Source: Minisyncoccota bacterium (GTDB lineage: Bacteria; Patescibacteriota; Minisyncoccia; Phycocordibacterales; Zambryskibacteraceae). Taken from it: a DNA stretch of 64,000 nucleotides. Shown here piece by piece: positions 37,125 to 46,300 of the stretch (position 1 is its first letter; each line of letters opens with the position of its first letter). The position numbers were made by a program, and so were the translations under genes. The notes beneath the pieces were generated by a model, which saw only the letters and a program-made list of their open reading frames with translations, was not told the origin of the DNA and did not search any database. The DNA is taken from NCBI GenBank assembly GCA_020059045.1, contig JAGVCW010000029.1, positions 39,469-103,468 on the forward strand, in the 5' to 3' direction.

Positions 37125-38372
37125 ATGCCAAAAAAGAAACTAAAAAAAATTAATAAGAAAGCAAAAAAAGCGCCAAAACGCGCAAAAAAGGTTAATAAAA
37201 AGAAAGCTAAAAAAATCTTTAAAACAAAGAAGAGCAAGAAGCCTATAATATTTGATTCTGCTAAAAAGGAATCTGTGAAGCTCACTAAAAAAGCTCAAGC
37301 GGTGGAAGAGAAGGTGGGGCAACTTATGGCCAAGGGCAAGGATAAGGGATTTGTGACATACGATGAGATTCTTAGACAATTCCCAACTGTTGAAGATGAC
37401 ATCCTCTTTCTTGAGGACTTGTACCTACGGCTAAATACTGCGGGCGTGGATATTCTCGAGGGAGGAGGGTTGCTCGATGTACCACAAGAAGTGGATGAAA
37501 CGGGTAAGAAATACGAATATGGAAAAGGAGATGCTTCATATGACTCCATACAGATGTATCTGAAAGAAATTGGCCAGTACCCACTCATTACTGGAGCAAT
37601 GGAAAAGGATTTGGCAAAGAGAATTGAGGCGGGGGACGAGGAGGCAAAGAACTTGCTTGCTCGCGCTAACCTGCGACTTGTAGTATCTATTGCAAAAAAA
37701 TATGTTGGCAGAAGCCCGGATTTGACACTGCTTGACCTCATACAAGAAGGTAACCTGGGGCTATTCAAAGCCGTAGATAAGTTCGACTGGACAAAGGGAT
37801 ATAAATTCTCGACTTATGCTACTTGGTGGATCAGACAAGCTATTACTCGAGCACTTGCGGATCAGTCACGAACAATACGTGTTCCCGTCCACATGGTGGA
37901 GACTATTGCAAAGTACAAGCAGGTGGTGAGACGCCTTACGCAAGACTTGGGACGAGATCCACTGGCAGAAGAGATTGCAACTGAAATGAACCTTGATGTA
38001 GATAAAATTTATAATATTGAAAAGATTGATCAGTCCACAGTGTCACTTGAAGCACCCGTGGGGGCAGATGAGGCGGATGACGGAAAGAGTAAACTTGGTG
38101 ACTTTCTTGCAGACGACAAAATACTTTCACCAGACCAGGAAACTTCTAGAAGAATCATAGCTGATCAAGTGAAAGAGATTTTAAATGATTTGCCTCCTAA
38201 GGAAAGAAAGATTCTTGAAATGAGACATGGGCTTACGGACGGCTTCACCCATACACTCGAAGAAGTGGGCAAGGTATTCGGAGTTACTCGAGAGCGTATC
38301 AGACAGATTGAGGCAAAGGCACATGAAAAGATTCGTCAGCATGAAAGAATAAATAGGTTGAGGAATTACTAA
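37125..38372 (+). CDS. rpoD: RNA polymerase sigma factor (sigma-70 family, primary)
   Basis: Regions 1.2 to 4 are present, including the [13 protein letters not shown] 2.4 motif. Lys-rich N-terminus. Confidence 0.9.
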
Positions 38373-38442: not shown

Positions 38443-38469
38443 ATAAAAAAACTCTGCGGTTAGGCAGAG
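38443..38469 (-). terminator. Rho-independent terminator (minus strand)
   Basis: CTCTGC-GGTTAG-GCAGAG hairpin preceded by an A-run on the plus strand. Lies just 3' of the gene at 38473. Confidence 0.6.
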
Positions 38470-38472
38470 CGG

Positions 38473-38940
38473 CTAATTTCGTGTAAGTAGTAGCTTTAGA
38501 GTTTTCCTATAGAATATGAGGATAAGTGTCGCAAAAGCGGCGGCACCCGAAATAGTTACAAGAAATAGAAAAATAGGACGTATTTGGGGGAGGCGTGGCG
38601 ACTGCATTAAGACAAAGAAGATAGCAGTGCGGCCAAGATGCCCGATGAAGATATGTACAAGTGAATTGAATTCTAAGGGCTTGGTACTAGAGCTTGCTTG
38701 CCGCGCATTACTACCATAGTGTTTCAACCTGTTTGCTAATTGCATTGTTAACCACGTAAAGAATACTATGGATATGCTTGCAATTAATACAACGGTAATA
38801 TCATGTAATGACTTCTCAATAGAGAATCCAGTCTCCTTGAGAATGAATACCGCACTAACTAGAGAATACGCAACCCCGATTGCAATAGAAATTTTCAACC
38901 CCTTTTTCATTTCAGCAAGGCCGGTATTCGATTTAAACAT
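38473..38940 (-). CDS. Hypothetical multi-pass membrane protein
   Basis: About 4 TM helices. Start chosen at an internal Met of ORF 38473..39111. Confidence 0.4.
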   Translation of the reverse strand: MFKSNTGLAEMKKGLKISIAIGVAYSLVSAVFILKETGFSIEKSLHDITVVLIASISIVFFTWLTMQLANRLKHYGSNARQASSSTKPLEFNSLVHIFIGHLGRTAIFFVLMQSPRLPQIRPIFLFLVTISGAAAFATLILIFYRKTLKLLLTRN

Positions 38941-39321
38941 ATGCCCTCGAAGTGAAGGTTTCAGTTCTAGTCCAATTCTAGCCTGAATAGATATTAATGA
39001 ATAGTAGTGATATAAGCTGAAGTTTGTGTAATATCTCCCGGGGTAAATAGTATGACGGTGGGTATTGTAATAAGAAGTACAAGACAGGTTTTCTTGAACA
39101 CTTTTTTCCAAACGCTATAAAAACTTTTATGCGATGGCATGTATGCCTCCAAGGTGTTAAAGGACAGTGTTCTTCATAAAGTATACTCTCATCTTGCAAA
39201 AGTCAAAGATACTGTAAGTTTGTGAATTTAAAAAATTTATAAAAAAACACCACCGTCGTTGTGACCAGTGGTTATAACTTCTGAAAACCTTGGGGTTACT
39301 GTGGTATGTTTTGTAGCATCT

Positions 39322-39558
39322 TTACCAGGAATGTATTGTTCCTAGTACCAAACCCACGAGAGACAACGCTAGAAAGGCGAGCGGTCGTACGGGTTGTACC
39401 AACGTAGCACCGACTGAATACCCAATGATGTAGGAAGCAAGCCCGGCATACATTCCCACGCTAGAAGGAAATGTGTAACTCCAAATGATTCCCGGTACCA
39501 GCCCGATAACAAGCGGCAAAACAATGTCGTGAGTCACTCGAATTTTCCGTGTAGTCAT
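39322..39558 (-). CDS. Small two-TM membrane protein, cassette copy A
   Basis: 78 aa, two hydrophobic helices. Has its own TTGACT/TATATT promoter and a near-identical hairpin terminator (39241-39272). Confidence 0.5.
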   Translation of the reverse strand: MTTRKIRVTHDIVLPLVIGLVPGIIWSYTFPSSVGMYAGLASYIIGYSVGATLVQPVRPLAFLALSLVGLVLGTIHSW

Positions 39559-39696
39559 TGGATCCTCGTGGTTGGATGTCGGTTGCTCTGTGTATAATAT
39601 ATCATAGCAAATTATATAAGTCAAATAAAAATTTAAACAAAAAAACACCACCGTCGTTGTGACCGGTGGTTGTGTGGATATCGAGTGCATTTCACT

Positions 39697-39963
39697 TCAT
39701 CCGACTGATGTTGCTTTCAAGGTTACTCCGAGAATCCAGCCCAAGATTGTTCCAACTGCAAGCATGAGGTAGAACAGGACGAGGGCGAGATTTACCGTCA
39801 GCTCCTTGATGACAATAATTGTGAGCATGATGAGAGGCACAAGGTAGACGAACATTATTGGGTCTTTCCAGGTAACGAAACTGAGCCCACCCCACAGTAT
39901 CCCAAGTAAGAGGGGAATCATGATGTTCTGAGTCCCAGCATGAAGTCTTTCGTCGTCAAGCAT
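39697..39963 (-). CDS. Small two-TM membrane protein, cassette copy B
   Basis: 88 aa. C-terminus …LGVTLKATSVG resembles copy C. The longer ORF 39697..40248 reads through the repeated terminator and is rejected. Confidence 0.5.
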   Translation of the reverse strand: MLDDERLHAGTQNIMIPLLLGILWGGLSFVTWKDPIMFVYLVPLIMLTIIVIKELTVNLALVLFYLMLAVGTILGWILGVTLKATSVG

Positions 39964-40108
39964 GGCAGTCCTCGGTGTGTGTAAGGGTATACAGTATAGA
40001 TCTACAAATATTATAGCAGAGTCAAATACATAAGTCAAATAAAAATTTATATAAAAAAACACCACCGTCGTTGTGACCGGTGGTGGAAATGTATCTGCGC
40101 CCCTCAGC

Positions 40109-40369
40109 TTATCCAACTGGTATGCCTTTGAGGGCAACTCCGAGAACCATCCCCCCAAACGACCCCAGGGCAAGCATGAGAAGGAACAGTTTGATTCGTG
40201 TCCTCCTGTTGAGGACAGGAAGGACCATTGCCATGAGGGTGAATGCAACTCCAGCGAAGAACCTCAGTGGGCTGTCCAGTGTCAGAACGAAGATCACCCC
40301 CGATACAATACCTCCTGCGAGAGGAACGGTGATGTTCTGCGTCATTGAAAGGAGTTTCTCGTTGCTCAT
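40109..40369 (-). CDS. Small two-TM membrane protein, cassette copy C
   Basis: 86 aa. C-terminus …LGVALKGIPVG. Own promoter (TTGACT, 17 nt, TATACT). Confidence 0.5.
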   Translation of the reverse strand: MSNEKLLSMTQNITVPLAGGIVSGVIFVLTLDSPLRFFAGVAFTLMAMVLPVLNRRTRIKLFLLMLALGSFGGMVLGVALKGIPVG

Positions 40370-40511
40370 GGTAGCCTCGGTGTATGTGGTTGTGTGTTCT
40401 GTGTATAGTATAGCATACCATACTCATAAAGTCAATATCTAAATAGTGCCTAAAAATATGGTTATTTTGACTTAAATTGTAAGACATAGGATTTATGACT
40501 TATGCTAAAAT

Positions 40512-41339
40512 TTGACTATGGCAAGAAAGAAATTTCCAATAGAACACTGGAGCTATTCTTCGTTAGTAACTTATCTTAGAAATCCACTGGCCTGGTATAA
40601 GCGATATGTGGAAGGTGTGTACGATATACCAGGCACATCATCATCAGTTCTGGGGCGCGCTGGTCACAAGGCACTCGAACATTTTTACAGTGGTGCGCCG
40701 CTCGAAGTTGCCATTCAACTTGGCTTGGAATATTTGCAGTCTGTGCCAGATTACGAAATAAACTTGGGTCAGTTTGCGACCGTTAAGGCTAAGAAAGTTA
40801 GAAGAAAGATGATGGAGGCAGAGTATAAGCAGGCAATCAACTTTTATCTTGAAAGGCCGCCTAGACACAAGGTCTTGGGTGTGGAAGTAAAGAAAACTAC
40901 ACGAATTCCTGGAATAGATATTCCAATAAAAGCCATATCAGATCTAGTGGTGGTTTCAAGTATAGATAAAAATGCTGTAGATATTGTCGACCACAAGTTT
41001 GTAGCGTCTTTTAGCGGAGAGGAGATCAACAACCCACTTTTTGTAATACAGGCACTCTTCAATTACTACACGGTGCTTTCTGAATTCAATAGGCCAGTAA
41101 AACGGTTTATAGTTTATGAATGCAAGAAAACGAAAAACAAAAACGGCAAACCCCAGCTAAGAAAGAATGTAATTGACTTTATGAAACACAAAGACGAATT
41201 TGAACTTTTTTACCGTCTCTTGCGCGATGCTACTAAGGATATTCGAACACGCAAGGTATTTCTACCGAACCCCTCAGACATTTTTGAGGGCAAGGACTCA
41301 CTAGATATTTATCGTTGGAATCTCGTGGATAGGGCTTAA
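40512..41339 (+). CDS. Stand-alone RecB-family PD-(D/E)XK nuclease (Cas4/AddB-nuclease-like fold without a Cys cluster)
   Basis: N-terminal SYSSLVTYLRNP…WY motif, GRAGHKALEHFY (G.a.H..lE), D…VDIVDHK ((D/E)xK) and QALFNYY (QhxxY) motifs. No C-terminal Cys-x-Cys. Confidence 0.55.
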   Translation: MTMARKKFPIEHWSYSSLVTYLRNPLAWYKRYVEGVYDIPGTSSSVLGRAGHKALEHFYSGAPLEVAIQLGLEYLQSVPDYEINLGQFATVKAKKVRRKMMEAEYKQAINFYLERPPRHKVLGVEVKKTTRIPGIDIPIKAISDLVVVSSIDKNAVDIVDHKFVASFSGEEINNPLFVIQALFNYYTVLSEFNRPVKRFIVYECKKTKNKNGKPQLRKNVIDFMKHKDEFELFYRLLRDATKDIRTRKVFLPNPSDIFEGKDSLDIYRWNLVDRA

Positions 41340-42998: not shown

Positions 42999-43418
42999 CT
43001 AAGGACGGCAGTCACCTACGAGGTCCACATCATCTCCTTGCCTTTCAACTTTCTTAATTCCAGGACAGGGAGGAGAGGGGAGATTATAAACCGCAATAAG
43101 TCTAAGCGCGTTGTTGTGTATGCCTAAAACGTAATAGCTATCTGACCCAGTCATCATGGGTTTCGCGTAGAATATTTCTAAGATGTCGTCTTGTTTCAGA
43201 ATGCCCTGATCAACCGCACGTCCAATTGCTTCGTTCCTACCTTCTATGTGGCCGTATATTCCAGAACAGAGACCAGTAAACATCAAAATAAACACTACCA
43301 TAAGGATCCGAACGCCAGCGATTTGATCTTTTGCTCCCAAATAAAGACCAATTGAAAGTAGAAATACTAGCACTATGGCAAGCGACATGGCCGTGTCCCC
43401 CTTATGATGAGTGAACAA
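42999..43418 (-). CDS. Membrane-anchored protein, PCPGIK-Cys family paralog 1
   Basis: Two N-terminal TM helices. C-terminal …YYVLGIHNN…LPSPPCPGIKKVE…LVGDC. Confidence 0.5.
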   Translation of the reverse strand: MFTHHKGDTAMSLAIVLVFLLSIGLYLGAKDQIAGVRILMVVFILMFTGLCSGIYGHIEGRNEAIGRAVDQGILKQDDILEIFYAKPMMTGSDSYYVLGIHNNALRLIAVYNLPSPPCPGIKKVERQGDDVDLVGDCRP

Positions 43419-43498: not shown

Positions 43499-43963
43499 TT
43501 ATGTTTTACATGGACCTACGAGACGGACTATGCCTTTATCTTTTTCTACCGTTTTAATCCCAGGACATGGTTCTTCAAATGAGCCTGGTAAGTACAAGAG
43601 AAGTATTTTGTTCTTGTGGTAGCCAACAATATAGTATCCAGTAAAGTTTGGACCACTGGTAAAACTTTGCAGGAGTTCAAACTGGTCACCGTTCCCTAGA
43701 ATATCTACGGAGCCTACATAGCCAGCCTTCCTGAGACCGTCATTGAAGGCAAAGTGGAGTGATAGATATATCCCAATAAACATAACAACCATCGCAACCA
43801 CAAGCCTGAGAGCTAATTTATCTGCGACTTGTACAGCAACATGACATGTAAGTAAGAAACCCAGCATCACGATCGCAACGGCAATCCACGCTAAGTACAT
43901 GTGAACTCCATGAAAAGGAAGAACTGCTAAATGCAAAATATCACAAAATTTGAGAAGACGCAA
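43499..43963 (-). CDS. Membrane-anchored protein, PCPGIK-Cys family paralog 2
   Basis: …YYIVGYHKNKILLLYLPGSFEEPCPGIKTVE…LVGPC. Weak terminator hairpin at 43465-43489. Confidence 0.5.
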   Translation of the reverse strand: MRLLKFCDILHLAVLPFHGVHMYLAWIAVAIVMLGFLLTCHVAVQVADKLALRLVVAMVVMFIGIYLSLHFAFNDGLRKAGYVGSVDILGNGDQFELLQSFTSGPNFTGYYIVGYHKNKILLLYLPGSFEEPCPGIKTVEKDKGIVRLVGPCKT

Positions 43964-45359: not shown

Positions 45360-46300
45360 GTAAGATTTCCACATGTCTGAAGAAAAATTCCGTAGATTAC
45401 TTGGAAAAGCTATCGGGAAGCCCGTTGAACTAAAGTCTGGAAAACGGGTATTGGGGAAAGTCTCTGATTATAGCGGAAAGCGAACTCGTCCACATAAGCT
45501 TGGAGGTGTTTCGCAGAAACGAAGTGGTAAGTCCCGCGGATAGAGCGTTTTAGCTGTCCCCAGAATCCCTCTATCGTGTTTGTGTGAATACCACCTCTAA
45601 CATACTCTCTCCTAGCGTGCTGGACGGACTGATTTTCATAGCCGATCTTGGGAAGCTTTGCATATACTAGAAACTCATCTGTCATAATGGTTGCATCCTT
45701 TGAGATATTGGCCTTAATCTTGCCGAGCATTATGTGAGTTTCCCTTGCACCGATTTTGTGCGCTCTAACTTTACCCTGTCTTTCTACCATTCCCATTAAA
45801 GCGGACTTGTTCTTAAACTTTGTAGCGTGAGTGCCCTTCTTTCCAAAGTAAGTCTCATCAACTTCAACTGTACCAGTTAAAAGGTTGCCGTCTTGCTCCA
45901 TGAGCTTTCTGATTTGAGTACCTATTCTCCAAGCACACTTATAGGTAACACCGAAGTGTCTTTGTAGCTCCTTAGCAGAGATGCCATTCTTGGCGATAGA
46001 GAAAAGGAAGATAGCCTCAAACCAAACTGTGAGAGGAGTAGAGGACTTCTTGAAGATAGTATCAGCCAGAGGGTGTATCTGGTGGCCAGCAGAATTAGTC
46101 CAGCACTTTCGGCCAGCGGTGCGGTAGTAGCCCTTTACGCTAGGGTACTTCTCTTTGAAAAGGTGGTTTAGGCACTTCTCCTCTGTCCCAAATTCCTTCC
46201 TAAAATCTTTAATGTTGTATTTCATTGCTAATTGGCTATCTACCTTGTAATACAGCCATTCTAGCAAACCCCTACTTGTTGTCAAGGGATAAGTACCTAA
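45360..46300 (-). mobile_element. IS1595-family insertion sequence (ends not defined)
   Basis: Single transposase gene with short flanks. Terminal inverted repeats could not be identified by eye. Confidence 0.4.
45410..46225 (-). CDS. IS1595-family (ISXO2-like) DDE transposase
   Basis: ISXO2-like transposase blocks …TDEFLVY…NTIEGFWGQLKR…YVDEFAFRYN. The ORF is open to 46285. Confidence 0.85.
   Translation of the reverse strand: MKYNIKDFRKEFGTEEKCLNHLFKEKYPSVKGYYRTAGRKCWTNSAGHQIHPLADTIFKKSSTPLTVWFEAIFLFSIAKNGISAKELQRHFGVTYKCAWRIGTQIRKLMEQDGNLLTGTVEVDETYFGKKGTHATKFKNKSALMGMVERQGKVRAHKIGARETHIMLGKIKANISKDATIMTDEFLVYAKLPKIGYENQSVQHARREYVRGGIHTNTIEGFWGQLKRSIRGTYHFVSAKHLQAYVDEFAFRYNQRLSPIPVFQTLVQRASR

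What the first reader, a model, noticed from the sequence alone, without database searches (positions are those of the whole stretch)
39200..40500. Triplicated about 400-bp cassette, each encoding a small two-TM protein with its own promoter and near-identical terminator
There are three consecutive minus-strand genes (78, 88 and 86 aa; two hydrophobic helices each; C-termini …LGVTLKATSVG / …LGVALKGIPVG). Each is followed by the same 32-bp hairpin plus T-run (AAAAAAACACCACCGTCGTTGTGACCGGTGGT at 39241, 39638, 40053). Each is preceded by a TTGACT-17-TAT(A/T)(A/C)T promoter, with an identical ATAAGTCAAATAAAAATTT block in two of the units. The coding parts have diverged while the regulatory flanks are nearly identical. 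This points to ongoing gene conversion, or to selection on the flanks, with diversification of the protein. The array abuts a stand-alone RecB-family nuclease. Candidate roles include holin-, toxin- or immunity-like membrane peptides, or phase-variable surface proteins.
Basis: seen in the sequence. Interest (0 to 1): 0.55.

Follow-up and report, generated by a model that had tools for sequence, protein, structure and literature searches.

The report
Triplicated orphan small membrane-protein genes
Three diverged copies of a small membrane-protein gene with no detectable relatives sit in tandem in an uncultured Paceibacteria (CPR) genome, each with its own promoter and a nearly identical terminator; the array is real and mildly curious, its function is unknown, and it fills a variable gene slot.

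Summary
Three minus-strand genes (78, 88 and 86 aa) each have a TTGACT-17-TG-n-TATAAT-like promoter, a GAGG ribosome-binding site and the same 32-nt hairpin plus U7 terminator (3 hits in 64 kb, 0 expected). The terminator is 97-100% identical between units. Synonymous sites are saturated (pS 0.59-0.76), and the spacers between stop codon and hairpin are only 56-65% identical.

- The proteins have three hydrophobic helices, not two.
- The neighbouring PD-(D/E)XK nuclease is a conserved core gene, not a partner of the array.

The family is an orphan: an exhaustive profile search of 1.84 billion representative proteins found only the window's own genes. The genome is Paceibacteria (CPR). The order rpoC-dnaG-rpoD-[gap]-nuclease-dsbA is conserved in 139 of 160 related loci. 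The rpoD-nuclease gap varies from 24 bp to 8 kb and holds lineage-specific cargo. The array lies in this slot.

Best reading: a tandem-duplicated family of autonomous one-gene units. Their compact terminator-promoter junctions are kept alike by selection and/or recombination. Type I toxin, holin, integron and REP memberships fail the tests I could run. The function, possibly an envelope or immunity-type role, is inferred only. Interest is modest.

The parts
40407..40435 (-). Promoter of pep3: TTGACT-17-TATACT with TG extended -10 and an A/T-rich upstream region
   Evidence: 10 of 12 matches, TG, upstream AT 0.77; consensus match only, not tested
40375..40378 (-). GAGG ribosome-binding site, 5 nt upstream of the pep3 ATG
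   Evidence: leader unstructured
40109..40369 (-). pep3: 86-aa protein with three hydrophobic helices (includes stop codon)
   Evidence: codon-position identity pattern 2>1>3 between paralogs
40053..40084 (-). Terminator 3: ACCACCGGTCACAACGACGGTGGT hairpin plus GU7
   Evidence: MFE -17.6 kcal/mol for the 73-nt fragment folded, whose only substantial helix is this hairpin; followed by U7
40010..40038 (-). Promoter of pep2: TTGACT-17-TATAAT with TG. The terminator U-run and the A/T block upstream act as a likely UP element
   Evidence: 11 of 12, TG, upstream AT 0.95
39697..39963 (-). pep2: 88-aa protein with three hydrophobic helices (RBS GAGG at 39970-39973)
39638..39670 (-). Terminator 2: identical hairpin plus U7
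39596..39624 (-). Promoter of pep1: TTGACT-17-TATATT with TG
   Evidence: 10 of 12, TG, upstream AT 0.91
39322..39558 (-). pep1: 78-aa protein with three hydrophobic helices, the most diverged copy (RBS GAGG at 39564-39567)
39241..39272 (-). Terminator 1: same hairpin with one C>U change that keeps a G-U pair, plus U7. The -35 block downstream has decayed
38994..39140 (-). orf48: 48-aa ORF with one hydrophobic segment, a GGAGG RBS and a weaker promoter-like site (TTGACT at 39202-39207). Part of the same lineage-specific insert
   Evidence: no Pfam hit; no relative in 160 related loci. Coding status is inferred
38473..38940 (-). memb155: 155-aa orphan polytopic membrane protein, the last gene of the insert
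   Evidence: only a weak DUF4396 hit; only itself in 5.8 billion clusters
38444..38470 (-). Unrelated intrinsic terminator of memb155 (GCUCUGC...GCAGAGU plus U7)
   Evidence: shows the pep hairpin is not this genome's generic terminator
37125..38372 (+). rpoD: conserved left border of the variable slot
40512..41339 (+). PD-(D/E)XK nuclease gene: conserved right border of the slot, not a partner of the array
   Evidence: PF12705, E 7e-15

Best explanation
This is a lineage-specific tandem triplication of an orphan gene for a small integral membrane protein of about 80-88 aa with three helices. It lies in a hypervariable cargo slot between rpoD and a conserved PD-(D/E)XK nuclease gene of a Paceibacteria (CPR) genome.

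Each copy is an autonomous one-gene unit. It has a near-consensus sigma-70 promoter with an extended -10, a short unstructured CA-rich leader, a GAGG RBS, the ORF, and an intrinsic terminator. The terminator's U-tract runs straight into the A/T-rich region upstream of the next promoter's -35. Together they form a compact terminator-promoter junction of about 77 nt.

Inferred history: the array grew by unequal homologous recombination or duplication of a promoter-gene-terminator unit. The ORFs then diverged to synonymous saturation under weak purifying selection. That selection preserved the three-helix hydropathy pattern and small-residue motifs (G-x3-G in helix 1, G-x2-L-G in helix 3). The junction stayed nearly identical through selection on its double signal function, through short-tract gene conversion between copies, or both.

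Inferred function, with low confidence: abundant, probably oligomeric accessory envelope proteins, most plausibly with a protective or immunity-type role.
For: Shown:
- Unit anatomy.
- The three proteins are paralogs.
- They are protein-coding: nucleotide identity by codon position is 2>1>3, and pN 0.40-0.53 is below pS 0.59-0.76.
- Three helices, from hydropathy and an AlphaFold2 model (H3-30, H34-49, H55-82; pLDDT 61, so low confidence).
- Terminator 97-100% identical, against 56-65% for the adjacent spacer.
- The -35/UP block is exact only in the two junctions that drive a pep gene and has decayed after the last copy. This fits selection on function.
- Internal control: the tandem paralogs p139/p154, at similar protein divergence (32%), share no flank repeat.
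- Orphan status.
- Conserved synteny with a variable gap of 24 bp to 8 kb.
- In relatives, neighbouring cargo genes in the same gap also carry near-identical hairpin-promoter or promoter blocks (L044 4 x 49 nt; L028 34 nt at 97%; L159 68 nt at 88%).
- Local direct repeats are about 8-fold denser in the gap than outside it.

Literature analogue: tandem esaG immunity paralogs share a homology block that covers the gene end and the intergenic region, and this block mediates recombination (PMC9484751).
Against: - No orthologous array exists in any collection searched, so selection and gene conversion cannot be told apart.
- Identity of the hairpin loop and bulge is more than a terminator needs.
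- Differences between the two best junction copies cluster in a 4-nt linker and in the promoter spacer. That looks more like element-wise constraint than a recent conversion of the whole junction.
- GC3 of the pep genes (0.47-0.60) is above the core genes (0.38 +/- 0.05). This hints at foreign origin or biased conversion, and the simple duplication model does not explain it.
- Promoter and terminator activity rest on consensus matches and folding only.
- No evidence bears directly on function.
- Read coverage was not available.
Confidence: 0.6

Rival explanations
1. The array is a set of immunity or protection genes. The three diversified membrane paralogs would each neutralise a variant of a membrane-targeting toxin or block phage entry, like the tandem tsaI/esaG or superinfection-exclusion genes. 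The conserved junctions would serve as homology blocks for gain and loss of copies.
For: - Tandem non-identical paralogs with a conserved 3'/intergenic block, as reported for esaG arrays (PMC9484751).
- Polytopic small membrane proteins; fast protein divergence (dN/dS about 0.5 for pep2/pep3).
- Location in an accessory slot.
- Strong stand-alone expression signals.
Against: - No toxin, secretion system or phage genes within about 10 kb.
- No hit in PADLOC, Pfam or PHROGs.
- No homologs anywhere, so no polymorphic family across strains can be shown.
Confidence: 0.15
2. These are type I toxin-antitoxin-like repeats, comparable to the tandem ldr/rdl or ibs/sib loci of E. coli. Each unit would encode a toxic hydrophobic peptide, and the conserved non-coding block would encode or control an antisense RNA.
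For: [quoted passage not shown] Fozo et al. used this signature to find such loci (PMC2887945).
Against: - The proteins are 78-88 aa with three helices. [quoted passage not shown]
- No conserved plus-strand promoter or terminator in the units.
- Leaders are unstructured and the RBS is exposed (z about 0), unlike translationally locked toxin mRNAs.
- Promoters are near-consensus.
Confidence: 0.06
3. The junction is a mobile or recombination element. The hairpin-promoter module, or whole promoter-gene-hairpin cassettes, would be inserted or captured at the hairpin, as in integron attC sites or REP/BIME elements. The genes would then be separately acquired cassettes rather than local duplicates.
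For: - In L044, four copies of a hairpin-promoter junction separate non-homologous genes in the same slot.
- L028 and L159 share promoter blocks, spacer included, between unrelated genes.
- REP-like palindromes with a Y1 transposase occur in related genomes (L034, L091).
- pep GC3 is atypical.
Against: - The three window genes are clear paralogs.
- The hairpin occurs only 3 times in 64 kb, and not at all in 160 related loci, the metagenome collection or the viral collection.
- No integrase or RAYT in the window near the array.
- The hairpin is 24 nt, has no GTTRRRY core, and has GTGG at the 3' rather than the 5' end of the palindrome.
- Each unit has its own promoter.
Confidence: 0.08
4. The array is a metagenome assembly artefact, in which three strain alleles of one gene were chained through the shared terminator and promoter k-mers.
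For: The contig is the only one carrying these proteins, so there is no independent assembly. The units share exact blocks of 19-32 nt.
Against: - The two internal junctions are distinct sequences that differ from each other, from the sequence upstream of pep3 and from the sequence downstream of pep1. Joining single-copy flanks could not produce them.
- The exact repeats (about 32 nt at most) are shorter than usual final k-mers and reads.
- The copies are far too different (32-42% aa) to be strain alleles.
Confidence: 0.03
5. The genes are holins or remnants of a phage lysis cassette.
For: Size and three predicted helices resemble class I holins (my own knowledge of the class).
Against: - No phage genes, endolysin or spanin nearby; the flanks are core genes with conserved order.
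- No significant PHROG or Pfam holin hit.
- No match in phage records or viral contigs.
- The C-terminal tail is short and almost uncharged.
Confidence: 0.02

Closest known systems
Tandem arrays of non-identical immunity paralogs in Firmicutes (esaG, tipC, tsaI; Garrett et al. 2022, PMC9484751)
   Same: - Strings of diverged paralogs in tandem.
- A block of high nucleotide similarity at the gene end and intergenic region, next to variable coding sequence.
- Recombination between copies is proposed as the driver of expansion and loss.
[quoted passage not shown]
   Different: - No cognate toxin or secretion system nearby.
- No sequence relationship to DUF600 or DUF443.
- Only three copies in one genome, with no population data.
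- Here the conserved block is purely regulatory (terminator plus promoter), and each gene is its own transcription unit.
E. coli long direct repeats and other tandem type I toxin loci (ldr/rdl, ibs/sib; Fozo et al. 2010, PMC2887945)
   Same: Tandem units of about 400-500 bp in an intergenic region. Each has a small hydrophobic ORF with its own promoter and terminator, and similarity extends beyond the ORF.
   Different: - The proteins are longer (78-88 aa against under 70 aa) and have three helices.
- No conserved antisense RNA signals.
- The RBS is open.
- No clustered polar or aromatic C-terminus.
Integron cassette arrays and recombinase-associated immunity arrays (rAID; bioRxiv 10.1101/471110)
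   Same: Short genes separated by a repeated, hairpin-forming conserved intergenic element. A related locus (L044) has unrelated genes between such elements.
   Different: - No integrase.
- The hairpin is 24 nt and lacks attC boxes.
- The cassettes carry their own promoters.
- The window's three genes are paralogs.
REP/BIME elements with RAYT transposases
   Same: A short GC-rich palindrome at the 3' ends of genes that can terminate or stabilise transcripts. REP-RAYT pairs exist in related Paceibacteria (L034, L091).
   Different: - Only three copies, all within the array.
- No RAYT in the 64 kb.
- The palindrome head does not match.
- A U-tract follows the hairpin, as in an ordinary intrinsic terminator.

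Membership tests
Rho-independent (intrinsic) terminator | GC-rich stem-loop immediately followed by a U-tract on the transcribed strand | tested here: met
   8+2 bp stem with a one-base bulge and a 5-nt loop, then GU7, just downstream of each stop codon (24-49 nt). The simple scanner missed it only because it allows no bulges, so it saw a 7-bp stem with a 10-nt loop, above its 3-8-nt limit. Activity was not measured.
Sigma-70 promoter with extended -10 | TTGACA-like -35, 17-nt spacer, TGnTATAAT-like -10 | tested here: met
   10-11 of 12 matches, 17-nt spacer and TG in all three units, with 77-95% A/T upstream. This is a consensus match only.
Type I toxin-antitoxin (Ldr/Ibs/Hok-like) | Toxin under 70 aa with a single TM helix and a polar/aromatic C-terminal cluster | tested here: not met
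   78-88 aa, three hydrophobic segments, C-tails KATSVG / KGIPVG / HSW. Criteria from PMC2887945.
Type I toxin-antitoxin (Ldr/Ibs/Hok-like) | Cis- or divergently encoded antisense small RNA conserved in each repeat | tested here: inconclusive
   No conserved plus-strand promoter or terminator (only one weak site, in unit 2). No Rfam family. RNA data are lacking.
Type I toxin-antitoxin (Ldr/Ibs/Hok-like) | Toxin mRNA with a sequestered ribosome-binding site | tested here: not met
   Leaders fold no better than shuffles (z -0.1 to -0.4) and GAGG is largely unpaired.
Type I toxin-antitoxin (Ldr/Ibs/Hok-like) | Tandem duplication within one intergenic region | tested here: met
   Three units with 398- and 414-nt spacing.
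Integron gene-cassette array | Adjacent IntI tyrosine recombinase with attI/Pc | tested here: not met
   Neighbours are rpoB, rpoC, dnaG, rpoD, the nuclease, dsbA and uppP. The only transposase is an IS1595 DDE type 5 kb away.
Integron gene-cassette array | attC sites of about 57-141 nt with R''/L''/L'/R' boxes (R' GTTRRRY) and mostly promoterless cassettes | tested here: not met
   The hairpin is 24 nt with no GTTRRRY, and every unit has its own promoter. The attC criteria come from my own knowledge.
REP/RAYT system | Many dispersed palindromic copies and a Y1 (RAYT) transposase flanked by them | tested here: not met
   3 copies in 64 kb, all in the array. tblastn with the L034 RAYT finds nothing in the window (E above 2). 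The rest of the genome could not be searched.
Class I holin | Three TM helices with a charged C-terminal tail, encoded in a lysis cassette next to an endolysin | tested here: not met
   Three helices are present, but there is no charged tail, no phage context, no significant PHROG or Pfam hit and no phage or viral match.
Tandem polymorphic immunity-gene array (esaG/tsaI-like) | Tandem non-identical paralogs with conserved homology blocks that include the intergenic region | tested here: met
   compared with PMC9484751.
Tandem polymorphic immunity-gene array (esaG/tsaI-like) | Linked cognate toxin or secretion system, or homology to a known immunity family | tested here: not met
   None within about 10 kb. 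No Pfam or PADLOC hit.
Tandem polymorphic immunity-gene array (esaG/tsaI-like) | Protection against a toxin | not testable with these tools
   Needs an experiment.

The most novel reading that the evidence does not exclude
The rpoD-nuclease gap of Paceibacteria may be a cassette-accretion site that works without a dedicated recombinase. Short one-gene cassettes bounded by shared hairpin-promoter junctions would be gained, duplicated, exchanged and lost by homologous recombination at the junctions, like an integron without an integrase. On this reading the window's array is one snapshot. Its three diversifying membrane proteins would serve envelope defence (toxin immunity or phage exclusion) in an episymbiotic bacterium.
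Probability: 0.12. Interest if true: 0.6.

Novelty: new member of a known kind. Interest (0 to 1): 0.33.

Why it matters
On its own the array adds one more orphan membrane-protein family to CPR 'dark matter'.

Two points could be of wider use:
- It is a clean natural example of regulatory signals (a terminator fused to the next promoter) staying nearly invariant while the genes they serve diverge to saturation. It could therefore serve as a test case for concerted evolution against constraint on bacterial terminators.
- It marks a conserved, easily located variable slot (rpoD-nuclease) in Paceibacteria. Lineage-specific small genes with shared expression modules accumulate there. The slot could guide searches for accessory, host-interaction or defence genes in these uncultured symbionts.

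Tried and rejected
- **Homology searches, all empty apart from the window's own proteins:**
  - Pfam, PHROGs and PADLOC scans;
  - word-indexed search of 5.8 billion clusters;
  - exhaustive profile search of 1.84 billion representatives. Its third hit, P0003, is a repetitive low-complexity protein and is spurious;
  - profile and single-sequence searches of six-frame ORFs of the 160 related loci; the first 80 had also been searched with the profile with HMMER's speed filters off;
  - viral contigs; phage and plasmid records.
- **Hairpin DNA pattern:** no match in the metagenome collection, the viral collection or the fetched loci.
- **Source contig and closer relatives:**
  - The source contig could not be retrieved, so sample metadata and coverage remain unknown.
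  - No relative closer than 70% (nuclease identity) exists in the genome or metagenome collections, so no orthologous array was available.
- **Structure:** the AlphaFold2 model has pLDDT 61. I used it only for secondary structure and ran no fold search, because matches to a low-confidence three-helix model would be meaningless.
- **Rfam:** only sub-threshold chance hits.
- **Double-glycine leader idea for the N-terminus:** rejected. The GG is not conserved, the segment is the first hydrophobic helix, and no C39/ABC exporter is nearby.
- **Conserved motif TTTGGACAAAC in relatives' gaps:** I first took it for a slot-specific element. It turned out to be a promoter consensus also found outside the gap (27 of 39 hits).
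- **First script on the enlarged locus set:** it timed out and I reran it.
Full report
**Observation**

Three minus-strand ORFs encode 78, 88 and 86 aa: pep1 39322-39558, pep2 39697-39963 and pep3 40109-40369. The hairpin plus T-run sequence occurs three times in the 64-kb window and nowhere else. The first copy has one mismatch, and none is expected by chance. The repeat finder extends it to a 77-nt family with 398- and 414-nt spacing. A promoter scan reports TTGACT-17-TATACT, TATAAT and TATATT upstream of the three genes, each with TG before the -10. The block ATAAGTCAAATAAAAATTT is exact in two units.

**Anatomy of a unit**

Reading the minus strand, each unit has these parts:
- a near-consensus promoter whose upstream 22 nt are 77-95% A/T;
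- a leader of about 30-45 nt that is CA-rich and folds no better than shuffled sequence;
- a GAGG site 5-6 nt before the ATG;
- the ORF;
- 24-49 nt of unconserved spacer;
- a hairpin ACCACCGG-UCACAACGA-CGGUGGU (8+2 pairs with one bulge and a 5-nt loop) followed by GU7.

The U-tract and the following A/T block lead directly into the -35 of the next gene. Terminator and promoter therefore form one compact junction. After the third terminator come a weaker promoter-like site, a 48-aa ORF with one hydrophobic segment and a GGAGG site, and a 155-aa polytopic membrane protein. That last gene ends in an unrelated terminator. All five genes of the 2.1-kb stretch lie on the strand opposite to the flanking genes.

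**Conservation asymmetry**

| Segment | Identity between units |
|---|---|
| 32-nt terminator | 97-100% |
| Stop-to-hairpin spacer | 56-65% |
| CDS, nucleotides | 56-61% |
| CDS, amino acids | 32-42% |
| Third codon positions | 28-48% |

The Nei-Gojobori estimates are pS 0.59-0.76 and pN 0.40-0.53; dS is about 1.1 for pep2/pep3 and saturated for pairs with pep1. Identity by codon position runs 2>1>3, which shows the ORFs are real coding sequences. At the observed synonymous divergence, 32 neutral sites would stay identical with a probability of about 4e-13.

The single change in unit 1 (C to U) keeps a G-U pair. The UP/-35 block is exact only in the two junctions that drive a pep gene and has decayed after the last copy. 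Between those two junctions the differences cluster in a 4-nt linker and in the promoter spacer.

There is an internal control. The tandem paralogs p139 and p154, 3 kb away, are equally diverged (32% aa) and share no flank repeat. Conserved flanks are therefore not the default for old duplicates in this genome.

**The proteins**

The three are paralogs: pep2/pep3 are 37% identical (E 5e-14), and the N-terminal half of pep1 matches pep3 (E 6e-7). Hydropathy shows three hydrophobic segments, broken by charged turns at about residues 31-36 and 53-60. The AlphaFold2 model (pLDDT 61, low confidence) gives three helices at 3-30, 34-49 and 55-82. The 'two-TM' description is therefore wrong.

The positive-inside rule suggests N-in, C-out for pep1 and pep3; this is an inference. 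Invariant residues include T10, I13, P16, L17, G20 and G24 in helix 1 (a GxxxG motif) and G73, L76 and G77 in helix 3. These suggest helix packing or oligomerisation, again by inference.

No family in Pfam, PHROGs or PADLOC matches. A word-indexed search and an exhaustive profile search of 1.84 billion representatives return only the window's own proteins plus one spurious repetitive protein. Viral, phage and plasmid searches are empty. The 155-aa neighbour is also an orphan.

**Genomic context**

The adjacent 275-aa gene is a PD-(D/E)XK nuclease (PF12705, E 7e-15). Its relatives, at 55-70% identity, are all in Parcubacteria/Paceibacteria MAGs. The gene order is rpoB-rpoC-dnaG-rpoD-[gap]-nuclease-dsbA(-uppP). 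rpoD and the nuclease are found in this order in 139 of 160 fetched loci.

The distance from rpoD to the nuclease ranges from 24 bp to 8 kb, with a median of 651 bp. Of 225 candidate cargo ORFs in these gaps, 127 are singletons. Small hydrophobic ORFs occur in 32 of 114 loci with a gap of at least 200 bp. None of the 160 loci holds a relative of the pep proteins, orf48 or memb155, or the hairpin.

The array is therefore lineage-specific cargo in a conserved variable slot, and its adjacency to the nuclease is incidental. Overall GC of the array is unremarkable. GC3 of the pep genes (0.47, 0.57, 0.60) exceeds that of the core genes (0.38 +/- 0.05).

**The same design in relatives**

- In L044 the same gap holds four copies of a junction on the same relative strand. 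It consists of a 10-bp GC hairpin, a T-rich tail and a conserved block of about 35 nt. The copies separate genes that are not paralogs.
- In L028 and L159, unrelated neighbouring genes share promoter blocks including the spacer (34 nt at 97%; 68 nt at 88%), often directly after a GC hairpin.
- Exact local direct repeats of at least 20 nt are about 8-fold denser in the gap than elsewhere in the loci (16.2 against 2.1 per 100 kb). This control is crude, because the gap holds more intergenic sequence.

Sharing of expression modules between neighbouring cargo genes thus recurs in this slot. Where the genes are unrelated, duplication followed by divergence cannot explain it.

**Mechanism**

My preferred reading is a tandem-duplicated gene family made of autonomous one-gene units. 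Its junctions stay alike through selection on a dual-function signal, through short-tract recombination between copies, or both. The conserved blocks in turn provide the homology for unequal crossing-over. This is the mechanism documented for tandem esaG immunity paralogs, whose third homology block covers the gene end and the intergenic region (PMC9484751). Which force dominates cannot be decided without orthologous arrays.

Function is inferred only. Strong stand-alone expression signals, polytopic small proteins, fast divergence and an accessory location point to an abundant envelope component, possibly protective.

**Rivals**

- Type I toxin loci share the tandem layout. They fail on size, helix number, C-terminus, exposed RBS and the lack of conserved antisense signals.
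- Integron and REP readings fail on the recombinase, site structure, copy number and the presence of promoters.
- A holin reading fails on context, tail and homology.
- An assembly artefact is unlikely because the copies are highly diverged and each junction is a distinct sequence. Coverage was not available.

**Verdict**

The finding is real and correctly described apart from the helix count and the implied link to the nuclease. It is a new orphan family arranged in a familiar way (tandem paralogs with conserved intergenic blocks), so I rate interest as modest. The more unusual possibility is that the rpoD-nuclease slot accumulates cassettes by recombination at shared hairpin-promoter junctions. 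My evidence does not exclude it, but it rests on a few loci.

Noticed in passing
L019 9262-9302 and 9907-9947; also L067, L054, L073, L077, L102, L120 (same rpoD-nuclease gap): In 22 related loci the gap holds a gene of about 195 aa with a winged-helix N-terminus and a PaaX/Cas2-like domain (PF20803, E 3e-20). A 41-nt imperfect palindrome (TATCCA-N26-TGGATA type) lies just upstream of this gene and again about 55 nt upstream of the nuclease gene, and its arms covary between lineages. It is probably an operator for autoregulation and for control of the nuclease. It is absent from the window.
   Followed up: partly
L044 1421-3227 (minus strand): Four copies of a hairpin (CAGCCGGGCG...CGCCCGGCTG) plus T-rich tail plus a conserved block of about 35 nt separate non-homologous cargo genes in the same gap. 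This is a junction array like the window's, but with unrelated genes.
   Followed up: partly
L028 7536-9671; L159 1180-3547: Unrelated small cargo genes share near-identical promoter blocks, spacer included (TTTGGACAAAC...TAGGAT type), often right after a GC hairpin. The motif itself is a promoter consensus also found outside the gap.
   Followed up: partly
L034/L135 5061-6052 (L034 coordinates); L091 3512-4247: An IS200-like Y1 transposase (PF01797; RAYT-like) is flanked by three copies of a perfect palindrome (TGTGGAAGTCGGACTTCCACA; in L091 TAGTGACCTACGAGGTCACTAA). REP-RAYT-type systems therefore occur in Paceibacteria, here between rpoC and dnaG or after the nuclease gene.
   Followed up: partly
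window 42999-43418 and 43499-43963 (minus strand): A second tandem paralog pair (139 and 154 aa; 32% identity, E 8e-15). Each has an N-terminal hydrophobic region and a shared C-terminal PCPGIK..VE....V.LVG.C motif. There is no Pfam hit, no conserved flanks and no relatives in the related loci.
   Followed up: partly
window 45410-46285 (minus strand): An IS1595-family (ISXO2-like DDE) transposase gene lies about 5 kb from the array. I found no terminal inverted repeats, and it is not linked to the array.
   Followed up: partly
window 39322-40369: The pep genes have GC3 of 0.47-0.60 against 0.38 +/- 0.05 for 15 core genes, although total GC is ordinary. Foreign origin, expression-linked codon choice or GC-biased conversion could each explain this.
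   Followed up: no
window 40512-40520: The nuclease ORF is listed with a TTG start, but the homologs align from the ATG at 40518 (MARKKFPIEHW). No Shine-Dalgarno sequence is visible, and a TGnTAAAAT-like -10 lies just upstream, so the mRNA may be leaderless or nearly so.
   Followed up: no
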